A DNA stretch of 64,000 bases from Ginglymostoma cirratum (lineage: Eukaryota), in assembly GCA_024137785.1 (NCBI GenBank), contig JAHRHZ010000043.1, forward strand, positions 25,776,026-25,840,025, in the 5' to 3' direction. Every line of letters starts with the position of its first letter. The stretch's first letter is position 1. The translations under genes and the position numbers were made by a program. Under the pieces are notes generated by a model. It worked only from the letters and a program-made list of their open reading frames with translations, was not told the DNA's origin and searched no databases. Positions 3,101 to 6,100 of the stretch are shown piece by piece.

Positions 3101-6100
3101 GCCCCCATACCTGCCATGTTAACCTATGCCCACACCCTCTCCGATGGTCCTTTATAGTCCTGTATCAACCCATGATCCTTCAACCTTCATCGTTTGCTGT
3201 TTCTACATATCTTACCAACTCATCCAGTATCCACCTTGGGCTGTACTCAGGACCCATGCAGAGATGAGATAAAACTCAGTTCTATGCAATAAAGTCGTAA
3301 GTGTTAGTTGCAACTTCATTATATTGAGAAAGAGAACTTATTAAAAACTACTTTTCAGCATTTGGAACCCTTCATCTACAGAATGGCTTTAATGACAAAT
3401 ATTTCATTCAAATGCATAATCCCTTATAACAACAAACTTTGGAATTCATAGTCCCAATCAAAGAGTTACAACAACTTGTAGGTGTCAATCAAACCAAAAT
3501 AATAGGCACCCAACTGTGATAATGAATGGTTATGAAAGCAGCCACGTAGCACTAATTGTGTAATGGAAACCTTCAGGATTATGTCACAGACAGAATGAAA
3601 TAGCAAACAATTGTTTTGTTTTAACACTCCAGGTATTTATTTTCAAAGATGTAAAAGGCAGGACTATTAAATGCCTCAATGGCTTCACTGCTCCTTTTGA
3701 TAAATAATTTGGAAAATCTTATTGACGTTTTTGATAGTTCCTCTTGATCAATCTTCTTGATTCTTCTAATAATTTCTCCTGCCACTTCTGACAGGTCCTT
3801 TTGAGAATTGCCTTTGATGGTTTCAATGATTGATTTTGACTGGTCCACTTGATAGTTATTTTTGACCTTTGCTTTTGACGAGTCTGTTGACAGTTGCAAT
3901 TAGTTTAAACAGGTTTAGGTGCTTTTTATATGCCAGTTTAACATTTCCAAAGGACACCTTAACTCCCAAAGGACACAAGTTGTTCTCCAAAAGTGTCTTG
4001 GATCAAATCCAATGATGTACCTCACCTCTTAAAGAAAAGCACCAGTTCCAGACCTGCTCTTGCCAGGTCTACTCTGTACGCTTAAGGTGTCACACTCCGA
4101 GGCTGTCGAAATCCAAAGCAGCTGCTGATTTAAATGGTCAGCTGTCTCCTTAAATATCAAGTGTATGAGTTTGCACATGTTTGTGCCCCCACAAAATTAA
4201 GAAGCGCTGTGTTTGGGAGCAGCTCTTCAGACTTTTGAGGCCATCTACCATTTTTGCCATGATGGAGACCCTTTGTGCCAAAATGTCCAGTCTGACTATC
4301 CTGGAGGTTTGTACGCAATCCTCAGGATTGTAGAGAGAGCCAGGCACTTCCCACACCCGCACTCATACTCAGTGCCATTTTGGGCTAACGGACTGAAGAA
4401 TGCCAAAGGACTGATAAACAGCGCCACTCTTAAAAGTCAAATAAAGAATAGGCGTGAGCAGAAGAGGACCAGGATTATACTACCAGGAATATAAATTGGA
4501 AATGACTATGTATCATAGCAAAGACTGTTTAAGTAGGCTCAAACCAAATCTTCATATATAAGCACATTAAAAGCAAACTCAATATGAAGCCAAAGTTACT
4601 CCTTCAAAAAAACAACTGGGTTAAGTATCCTGATAGGACTGAGATAGAAGCTTAGTCTGAAGGATAATTGCATGATGTAACATGAGGATTTTTGTACGAC
4701 CAAAGTCAACAAGATATCTGTAGGTTGTTGCATGTGTGTGGGAAAATAGTGTATACTGGGAGTATTGTGTTAGGTGCATGGGTTCTGTTATATATCTGAA
4801 GTGTGTTGTGCAGAGTAGTGTGCATCCAGAAACAAGAACAAAGCTGCTGGAAAAGCTCAGCAGGTCTGGCAGCATCTGTGAAGGAAAAAAATCAGAGTTA
4901 ATGTTTCGGGTCCGGTGACCCTTCCTCACAAGTCAATATGGAGTTCTGAGGAAGGGTCACCGGACCTGAAACGTTAACTCTGATTTTTCCTTCACAGATG
5001 CTGCCAGACCTGCTGAGCTTTTCCAGCAACNNNNNNNNNNNNNNNNNNNNNNNNNNNNNNNNNNNNNNNNNNNNNNNNNNNNNNNNNNNNNNNNNNNNNN
5101 NNNNNNNNNNNNNNNNNNNNNNNNNNNNNNTTTTTCCTTCACAGATGCTGCCAGACCTGCTGAGCTTTTCCAGCAACTTTGATTTTGTTCCTGATTTGCA
5201 GCATCCGCAGTTTTTTCAGTTTAATTTAGTGTGCATACAGTATAATTTTCAAAGTTGAGTTATCTACACAAAACTACAAATTATGCAGTTGATCTTTCAT
5301 TCCAAAATCCTCTGCCTTCCTGCCCTCAGTCCACAATGGGTTCCATCTTATTCTTTGCCATAAATTTCAACAAAAACTATGAAGATTATATTCAATAGGA
5401 TGTGATAATTCCCAAGCATTCACAAAGCAATATTATGAAGAGCACTAGATGCTACCAGCAGCCAGAAATATGAGAAAGGCTGAATATTGATTTCTTTGGC
5501 ACACAGGGAGTTTTTATGTAAATCTTTCTCTCTGGAAATTCAGTTTGTGAGTTTGGACTATGCAACTGACTGTAATTTCCCTCTCTATTTCATACTCCTC
5601 ATTTCTATTTTTCCCCTTACTAAATGAGGTGAAACTCTGCCAGGCTGTTAAAATTAATGGTAAGCTAGGTTCTATGTAGAATTGAATGATATGTATAGTC
5701 CAGTGAGAATTTATGATAGGTTAGTTTATACACTGTCTGTGGAATGAGATTAAACGAGTGAGTTAGGGATTATGAGAGAGCAAAGTGTGCATGTGATTGG
5801 AAGAAGATGATGTGGAATGTCCATGATATGACAGATGAGGTTAAGTGGATAAAGTAGAGTCTATGATAGACTAGGGAGTAATTGAGCTGTGAGAGGAATT
5901 TAAACAGGTGAAATAGAGTGCATCATAAAGTATACATGGGCTGTGCCAGTAAATGAAATGGTTGAGTTAGTATATGATAGATTATAGAGTGCAAGAACTT
6001 CGGGAGGAGTGGGATGATGAGGAGAATGCCTGTCTCCCTCTCCTTATTTCCTTCAGGGTCTATCACAATGCCTGTAGTAAGGGGAACAGCATATTTGTAC

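What the first reader, a model, noticed from the sequence alone, without database searches (positions are those of the whole stretch)
4941..4981. Near-intact hammerhead ribozyme on the sense strand of a fibrillin intron, masked by its own antisense arm
Seen: GAGUU CUGAGGA A GGGUC-ACCG-GACCU GAA ACGU U^AACUC. It has both core boxes, a 5-bp helix I, a 5-bp helix II and a GUU triplet, with only the palindrome ACGU where helix III should be. An almost perfect reverse complement lies directly upstream (about 4830-4929). The two arms differ by reciprocal CpG transitions (CCCG>CCTG here, ACGT>ACAT there). Known: Penelope-like elements carry such minimal type-I hammerheads, which are thought to cleave as dimers through the palindrome, and an extra A after A9 occurs in natural hammerheads. 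Inference: the motif is transcribed with every fibrillin pre-mRNA and could cut the intron, but the upstream arm is made first and should trap it in a hairpin of about 90 bp. That built-in off-switch may explain why it is tolerated in a host gene.
Basis: partly seen in the sequence, partly recalled or inferred. Interest (0 to 1): 0.72.

Follow-up and report, generated by a model that had tools for sequence, protein, structure and literature searches.

The report
Mirror-image Penelope stub in fibrillin intron
The hammerhead-ribozyme motif is real, but it is the damaged end of a very common jumping gene that was pasted head-to-head with a mirror copy of itself, as about half of its sampled copies are, so it is likely inert debris and not a switch that the fibrillin gene uses.

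Summary
The motif (4941-4980) and the antisense arm (4827-4928) are real. They are the two halves of one target-site-duplicated insertion of the terminal repeat (pLTR) of a 3.3-kb Penelope-like retrotransposon (RT plus GIY-YIG). An exact 38-mer of the repeat occurs 15,029 times in this genome; 42 of 86 sampled insertions carry the same head-to-head arm, 38 of those 42 with the known one-sided tail. That layout and these minimal hammerheads are published (PMC3846280, PMC8557442, PMC4209133), and this scan has noted the same thing on other DNA. Copies decay mostly at CpG sites; intact cores are not enriched in armed copies (14/29 versus 23/36). A hint that unmasked young sense-strand copies are purged from introns (0 versus 9, post hoc) did not hold over all ages in other genes (11 versus 11). 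Ordinary; low interest.

The parts
15..152 (+). Fibrillin-family EGF exon; 5' splice site of the host intron at 153
   Evidence: acceptor AG before 15, GT at 153; joins in phase to the exon at 6644; gene family
153..6643 (+). Host intron (6.5 kb) that holds the insertion
   Evidence: acceptor AG at 6642-6643, next cbEGF exon from 6644
4816..4829 (+). Left target-site duplication (10 bp exact, 14 bp with one mismatch; last three bases may also be read as arm)
   Evidence: (family D2)
4827..4928 (-). Inverted, tail-less pLTR copy (the antisense arm); its hammerhead lacks C3 and the 5' strand of helix I, and its palindrome has a CpG change
4929..4941 (.). Junction/loop between the arms; supplies G4941, the fifth pair of helix I
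4941..4980 (+). Minimal type-I hammerhead motif; G10.1-C11.1 decayed to G-U (T4967); ACGT palindrome 4971-4974; predicted cut 4975/4976
4942..5030 (+). Direct pLTR copy, starting at the family's usual 5' end (AGTT)
4974..4997 (+). 3' splice-site-like sequence of the element (branch-like TTAAC, pyrimidine tract, CAG), overlapping the predicted cut site; buried in the hairpin; use not shown
   Evidence: sequence; consensus recalled; pairing
5031..5177 (+). Run of 100 N followed by an exact 47-nt repeat of 4984-5030; likely an assembly gap with overlap, a real tandem copy is not excluded
   Evidence: the same 100 N plus exact 47-nt repeat at another armed copy (L307) and a 47-nt repeat at a third gap
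5178..5226 (+). Rest of the direct pLTR with the one-sided ~35-nt tail
   Evidence: tail pattern
5227..5240 (+). Right target-site duplication; its first four bases match the element's own continuation (microhomology)

Best explanation
This is a fixed, likely inert insertion of two head-to-head copies of the ribozyme-bearing terminal repeat (pLTR) of an endonuclease-bearing Penelope-like retrotransposon, bounded by a target-site duplication. Shown: the parent is a ~3.3-kb element with RT and GIY-YIG domains whose pLTRs carry this hammerhead outside the coding frame; short copies number in the tens of thousands; half have the mirror arm; copies decay mostly at CpG sites. Inferred mechanism: the parent's RT and endonuclease copied a short pLTR RNA that began at the 5' edge of helix I, made a second inverted copy during integration, and left the tail on one side only. 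In the parent transcript two hammerheads would pair through ACGU and cut out a unit-length RNA (model of PMC4209133). In the fibrillin pre-mRNA this copy would not cut: it has no visible partner, a decayed G10.1-C11.1 pair, and is predicted to be zipped into an ~85-bp hairpin, or without the arm into the element's own pyrimidine tract. The intron would be spliced out as usual; the hairpin could be an ADAR substrate (untested).
For: Parent: 20 long copies align over ~3.2-3.4 kb, with pLTRs at both ends in many; RVT_1 32.6 bits over cut-off 29.6, GIY-YIG 20.3 bits, E 7e-4, under cut-off 22.6; ORF stops ~250 nt before the 3' hammerhead. Copy number: 15,029 exact 38-mers, control 0; 1,323 exact intact hammerheads; 88 superfamily hits in 357,162 non-N bases, 0 in the reversed control. 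Layout: 42 of 86 insertions with adjacent head-to-head arm, 38 of 42 one long and one short; 49 of 86 start within 3 nt of AGTT, 3 of 86 at the cut site; same layout described with TSDs in PMC3846280 and PMC8557442. Decay: CpG positions 95 of 387 mutated, core non-CpG 17 of 647, other non-CpG 61 of 1,353; T at 11.1 in 13 of 65 copies. Folding: hairpin -166.9 kcal/mol, hammerhead fold 57 worse; without arm P(helix I) 0.13 then 0.00, and 0.000-0.006 in six perfect native-context copies once the pyrimidine tract is present. Activity of relatives: no detectable cleavage of a single min-HHR, low for dimers (PMC4209133); 8 of 9 Xenopus dimers did not cleave (bioRxiv 10.64898/2026.07.22.740005). Intronic location is common: 42-44% of Xenopus retrozyme copies overlap introns.
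Against: No cleavage or RNA data. Core non-CpG positions are slightly less mutated than other non-CpG positions (p = 0.048; confounded by subfamily variation and by keeping only copies that reach the core). This is the only sense-strand copy in ~160 kb of the gene that meets the full descriptor, and it is armed. All 9 young unarmed copies of this type found inside genes are antisense (post hoc), and the Xenopus study reports depletion from introns. Contigs of a relative ~2-4% diverged run from the flank 37-40 nt into the arm in three studies, so the insertion has been kept for a long time; that fits neutral fixation but also utility. If the N run hides a real tandem copy, a sense partner would lie 147 nt downstream.
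Confidence: 0.88

Rival explanations
1. Population-level filter: unmasked sense-strand copies of this subfamily harm host transcripts and are purged, and armed copies such as this one survive because the hairpin hides the hazard. The hazard is more likely the element's 3' splice acceptor (4974-4997) than the ribozyme.
For: In this gene, unarmed acceptor-bearing pieces are 2 sense versus 10 antisense (p = 0.039), while a sister type with a hammerhead but no acceptor at that place is 6 versus 2. Young (>= 80 bits) unarmed copies in all genes examined: 0 sense versus 9 antisense (post hoc count from the table). The acceptor is fully paired in the hairpin.
Against: Not replicated over all ages in 276,026 bases of other genes: 11 sense versus 11 antisense. 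In those genes alone the young set is 0 versus 4. Two young sense pieces of unknown arm status were cut by a locus edge or an N run. The threshold was chosen after seeing the data. A base-skew proxy on 76 solo and 64 armed copies was too weak to tell. Arms arise in half of all insertions regardless of place.
Confidence: 0.15
2. One reading: the ribozyme in this copy is able to cut the fibrillin intron and the arm is what prevents it (a built-in off-switch).
For: All core nucleotides, the palindrome and an NUH triplet (GUU is listed among cleavable sites in PMC3138052) are present; a transcript ending at 4982 without the arm is predicted to fold helices I and II (P > 0.99); the arm wins by 57 kcal/mol.
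Against: Needs a second hammerhead: none is visible in sense within 7 kb and the ACGU duplex is worth only -1.7 kcal/mol. G10.1-C11.1 is lost. Twenty more transcribed bases disrupt the fold without any arm. Intact cores are as common or commoner in unarmed copies (23 of 36 versus 14 of 29).
Confidence: 0.05
3. Domesticated regulatory element of the fibrillin gene (ribozyme or hairpin kept for a host function), like the conserved intronic hammerheads of amniote RECK.
For: The insertion appears to be shared with a relative; domesticated intronic hammerheads exist (PMC6155905).
Against: Those are canonical and conserved over amniotes; this copy has ordinary CpG decay at a conserved pair, a dead partner arm, and several equally old neighbours in the same gene in all states of decay.
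Confidence: 0.02

Closest known systems
Minimal type-I hammerheads (min-HHR) in pLTRs of metazoan Penelope-like elements (Cervera and De la Pena 2014, PMC4209133)
   Same: Core boxes, no helix III, palindrome at 15.1-16.1, extra base between A9 and 10.1, short helix I, place in the pLTR, mostly dispersed single motifs; the paper also notes dual motifs on opposite strands 100-700 bp apart.
   Different: This copy has G-U in place of the conserved G10.1-C11.1; helix II is 5 bp; the arms are almost adjacent. Sharks are not named in the parts of that paper I read (parts 1-2 of 4).
Complex insertions of EN+ Penelope-like elements with inverted 5'-truncated pLTR, one-sided tail and TSD (Adineta Pen2a, PMC3846280; general scheme, PMC8557442)
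   Same: Head-to-head inverted pLTR, 30-40-nt tail on one side, 8-10-bp TSD, trouble for short-read assemblies.
   Different: No ORF between the repeats: only two pLTR stubs. 5' ends cluster at the 5' edge of helix I, 29 nt behind a TATA-like box in the parent; I did not find that stated in the passages read.
Neptune clade of Penelope-like elements
   Same: [quoted passage not shown]
   Different: Clade not tested by an RT tree.
Non-LTR retrozymes (bioRxiv 10.64898/2026.07.22.740005)
   Same: Non-autonomous, pLTR-related, type-I hammerhead, often intronic; monomers dispersed.
   Different: Defined as direct tandem repeats with a hammerhead in each unit; here the two copies are inverted, which cannot give a cis dimer.
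Ultraconserved intronic hammerheads of amniotes (RECK and others; PMC6155905)
   Same: Type-I hammerhead on the sense strand of a host intron.
   Different: Those are conserved across amniotes and thought domesticated; this is one of tens of thousands of decaying repeat copies.

Membership tests
PLE minimal type-I hammerhead (PMC4209133) | Core CUGANGA ... GAAA ... UH intact | tested here: met
PLE minimal type-I hammerhead (PMC4209133) | [quoted passage not shown] | tested here: met
   A4953; A in 62 of 65 copies
PLE minimal type-I hammerhead (PMC4209133) | Palindrome at 15.1-16.1 in place of helix III | tested here: met
   ACGT 4971-4974; ACGT or AGCT in other families
PLE minimal type-I hammerhead (PMC4209133) | Conserved G10.1-C11.1 pair | tested here: not met
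   G-U in this copy; G-C in 45 of 65 copies and in the parent, so the family meets it and this copy has decayed
PLE minimal type-I hammerhead (PMC4209133) | Sits in the pLTR of a PLE | tested here: met
PLE minimal type-I hammerhead (PMC4209133) | Covariation of helices between families | tested here: met
   helix I AGUU/AACU, UGCA/UGCA or UGCG, ACAC/GUGU; helix II GGGUC/GACCC, GUUAC/GUAAC, GGAGC/GCUCC; N7 = G, A, U, C (read by eye, no statistic)
PLE minimal type-I hammerhead (PMC4209133) | Self-cleavage as a dimer | not testable with these tools
   needs a cleavage assay
Rfam hammerhead families | Match to a curated covariance model | tested here: not met
   no hammerhead family among 10 matches at E <= 10
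EN+ Penelope-like element insertion | Parent ORF with RT and C-terminal GIY-YIG between pLTRs | tested here: met
   (RVT_1 over cut-off in 1 of 2 pieces; GIY-YIG E 7e-4, 2.3 bits under cut-off)
EN+ Penelope-like element insertion | Inverted 5'-truncated pLTR head to head, tail on one side, TSD | tested here: met
Neptune clade | CX2-5CxxC linker between RT and EN | tested here: met
   CNRRRCNAC and variants in the translations; definition
Neptune clade | RT phylogeny | not tested
   no named reference RTs fetched
Non-LTR retrozyme | Direct tandem units, each with a hammerhead | tested here: inconclusive
   visible copies are inverted; the N run cannot be read; 2 of 95 sampled copies had a second direct piece within 300 nt
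Domesticated intronic hammerheads (RECK type) | Canonical fold and deep conservation at one locus | tested here: not met
   no helix III, decayed pair, multicopy repeat; depth of conservation seen only to a close relative

The most novel reading that the evidence does not exclude
Penelope's habit of laying a mirror copy in front of each insertion acts as a self-silencing device: the hairpin hides both the hammerhead and an overlapping splice acceptor, so young unarmed sense-strand copies are purged from introns while armed ones such as this persist. With it goes a second point: short copies start at the 5' edge of helix I, 29 nt behind a TATA-like box, which would make the ribozyme the first 35 bases of the pLTR transcript and show that uncut monomer RNAs are the templates that get copied.
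Probability: 0.13. Interest if true: 0.55.

Novelty: new member of a known kind. Interest (0 to 1): 0.13.

Why it matters
As a single locus it matters little: it is one of tens of thousands of stubs. The family is of some use as material: 1,323 perfect hammerheads, a sharp 5' end and a one-sided tail give a large record of how Penelope-like elements copy themselves, which is still unresolved (PMC8557442 calls the role of the hammerhead unknown). If the strand bias of unarmed young copies held genome-wide, it would show selection on intronic retroelement ends and a protective side effect of inverted integration.

Tried and rejected
Rfam scan: no hammerhead; the mir-3914 match (52 bits, cut-off 97) reflects any long hairpin. 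Idea that G4941 is a copied cap G: rejected, G precedes AGTT in 184 of 1,323 exact copies and 6 of 30 inspected. Idea that the hammerhead is held by codon constraint: rejected, the ORF ends about 250 nt upstream. Sense-strand depletion of unarmed copies: seen in this gene, not replicated over all ages in other genes. Base-skew proxy for gene strand: calibration signal (T-A 0.018, sd 0.054) too weak, no conclusion. Sequencing runs: no RNA holder listed, so editing, splicing and cut ends could not be looked at. The right junction in the relative is covered by only 25-28 bases of element, under the tool's 31-base rule, so only the left junction counts as bridged. Lunse et al. 2017 (dimer cleavage of small PLE hammerheads) is not held; I know it only through the review PMC6765202. 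No paper with a measured effect of G10.1-U11.1 was found, so the size of that defect is not known here. Paper searches for a shark description gave none on this family; this covers only the held library, and supplements were not read. Two 38-47-nt repeats at 10-N gaps turned out to be microsatellites.

Full report
1. Observation. A minimal-hammerhead descriptor finds it as the only hit in the window, and 11 hits in 357,162 non-N bases of genome sample against 0 in the reversed sample. Rfam has no hammerhead match. The arm is real and 4820-4995 folds at z = -14.7. The host is a fibrillin-family gene on + (TB and cbEGF domains; paralogue not determined); the intron runs 153-6643. That the animal is a shark is recalled from the repeat and stated in earlier notes; I did not test it.

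2. One insertion. Arm, motif and downstream repeat lie between two copies of a 10-bp sequence (4816-4825, 5227-5236; 14 bp with one mismatch). Inside are an inverted copy without tail (4827-4928) and a direct copy with tail (4942-5226). A run of 100 N is followed by an exact repeat of the 47 bases before it. The same 100 N plus exact 47-base repeat occurs at another armed copy in this gene, and a 100-N run in L283 stands where only some 25 bases are expected, so an assembly gap is likely; the window cannot show it, and the 147-nt period would also fit a real tandem unit (2 of 95 sampled copies had a second direct piece nearby).

3. The family. An exact 38-mer from 4993-5030 occurs 15,029 times, control 0; the intact 39-nt hammerhead 1,323 times, 184 of them with G in front. 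A profile finds 88 superfamily pieces in 80 stretches taken at round coordinates on large contigs (357,162 of about 799,000 bases were not N), 0 in the reversed control. One copy ran on into an ORF; searching with it gave 150 scored matches of 5,970 candidates. Twenty of these, picked for long frames, align over 3.2-3.4 kb with pLTRs at the ends and encode RT (RVT_1 32.6 bits, cut-off 29.6; a second piece 27.5) and GIY-YIG (20.3 bits, cut-off 22.6), with a CX4CxxC linker as described for Neptune. The hammerhead is non-coding. In the parent it is preceded by ...CCATC, so native helix I is 4 bp and G4941 is a junction base.

4. The arm is the rule. I took the first listed places of the 38-mer on contigs C1 and C2 (90 loci, 95 distinct copies) and dropped 9 (2 near-duplicates, 2 partner arms or their N-cut mates counted once, 5 with N upstream; list). 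Of 86 insertions, 42 have an adjacent head-to-head arm; in 38 of 42 one copy has the tail and the other not; 49 start within 3 nt of AGTT, 11 keep native upstream sequence, 3 start at the cut site. PMC3846280 (passages) describes inverted pLTRs with tail and 8-10-bp TSD and calls head-to-head the most frequent arrangement; PMC8557442 (passages) gives this as the typical PLE structure and notes assembly problems; PMC4209133 (parts 1-2 of 4) describes the motif, its extra base, G10.1-C11.1, the palindrome, and dual motifs on opposite strands. The scan's earlier notes list 39 findings with these words in at least 10 genomes; they agree but are not independent support.

5. Selection. In 65 copies that reach the first core box, CpG positions are mutated in 95 of 387 cells, core non-CpG in 17 of 647, other non-CpG in 61 of 1,353 (core versus other p = 0.048); G12 is changed in 13 of 65; no compensatory pair change occurs in helix II; T at 11.1, as here, is seen 13 times. 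Cores are intact in 14 of 29 armed and 23 of 36 unarmed copies; with G-C and palindrome, 4 of 29 and 8 of 36. Between families the helices, loop 2, N7 and H17 differ while pairing and core are kept (by eye). So the ribozyme was selected in the masters and drifts in the copies.

6. Could this copy cut? Without the arm, helices I and II are predicted only while the RNA ends near 4982; with 20 more bases P(helix I) is 0.13, by 5030 it is 0.00, because the purine core pairs with the element's pyrimidine tract; six perfect native-context copies behave alike. The ACGU duplex is -1.7 kcal/mol and the next sense-strand core is at 12425. A single min-HHR showed no detectable cleavage and dimers little; 8 of 9 Xenopus dimer elements gave no product (bioRxiv 10.64898/2026.07.22.740005, parts 1-3 of 5). 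GUU is a permitted triplet (PMC3138052, passages); an extra A after A9 slowed one viroid hammerhead moderately (PMC1636495, passage). The cost of G10.1-U11.1 is not measured in what I could read. These are predictions and analogies; no assay was possible.

7. Test of the tolerance idea. Across about 160 kb of this gene, unarmed pieces of the acceptor-bearing type are 2 sense and 10 antisense (p = 0.039) and those of a sister type 6 and 2. In 276,026 distinct bases of other EGF and LDL-receptor-domain genes the counts are 11 and 11, and 15 and 8: no replication. After the fact, unarmed pieces of at least 80 bits are 0 sense and 9 antisense (5 here, 4 elsewhere; one re-classed by eye from 'gapdup' to solo, one fold-back piece left out, two cut sense pieces undecided). 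A skew proxy was uninformative. If a sense-strand hazard exists, the contrast between types points to the 3' splice-site-like sequence at 4974-4997 more than to the ribozyme, since both types carry hammerheads.

8. Age. Contigs of organism A, 24-25 differences in 567 bases on the left and 9-12 in about 420-500 on the right, run from the left flank to 4866 in three studies and from the right flank to 5199-5202 in four (under 31 bases inside the element). The insertion is likely older than that split. No RNA holder was listed.

9. Mechanism, committed. Parent RT and GIY-YIG endonuclease copied a short pLTR RNA beginning at the 5' edge of helix I (5' ends shown; TATA-like box at -29 in 22 of 35 native copies; promoter role inferred, and D. 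virilis Penelope uses an internal TATA-less promoter, PMC2377424 passages; an antisense template as proposed in PMC3846280 is an alternative), added an inverted copy and duplicated the target. The insert has since drifted. In the pre-mRNA it would form an ~85-bp hairpin and leave with the intron. Confidence 0.88.

10. Verdict. Works like, and belongs to, the PLE pLTR minimal hammerheads and inverted PLE insertions; this copy fails one conserved pair. New member of a known kind; interest 0.13. Supplements of the cited papers were not read and might list chondrichthyan elements.

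Noticed in passing
window 2415-3024: A second, older head-to-head insertion of a different Penelope-type repeat in the same intron (arms 2418-2594 and 2795-2971, 89% alike), with a 9-bp direct repeat at 2415-2423 and 3016-3024 and a decayed sense-strand hammerhead near 2898-2930.
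   Followed up: partly
window 56361-56562: Another head-to-head palindrome of that second family, hammerheads decayed.
   Followed up: partly
window 12423-12500 and 45859-45949: Two unarmed sense-strand pLTR stubs of a sister subfamily; 12423 keeps all core bases and G10.1-C11.1 but has a 2-bp helix I and a broken palindrome; 45859 has lost G12.
   Followed up: yes
L161-L180, L212-L238 (native pLTR context): A TATA-like box starts 29 nt before AGTT in 22 of 35 native-context copies, followed by an initiator-like TC|AGTT (the selection pattern included the last bases, so that part is circular); the same stretch also reads as a branch point plus 3' splice site ending 8 nt before AGTT, as in D. 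virilis Penelope where an intron ends at helix I.
   Followed up: partly
L055:1501-2140; G000:C47:2038617 and 2039124: Internally deleted elements give direct tandem hammerheads about 505 nt apart, the geometry needed for dimer cleavage; several long copies jump from mid-ORF straight to AGTT.
   Followed up: partly
L307:5987-6360 (upstream intron of the same gene): Armed insertion of the same subfamily with the same 100-N run and exact 47-nt repeat, private mutations included; points to an assembly artefact (a 47-base overlap would fit a 48-mer assembler; recalled, not tested).
   Followed up: yes
window 9483-9641 (-) and 48978-49190 (+): Decayed remnants of Penelope GIY-YIG C-terminal coding sequence.
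   Followed up: no
window 382-522: Short tandem array with a 32-nt unit just behind the first exon.
   Followed up: no
gene-oriented loci: Unarmed stubs of the acceptor-less sister type lean to the sense strand (21 versus 10, p = 0.07), unexplained.
   Followed up: no
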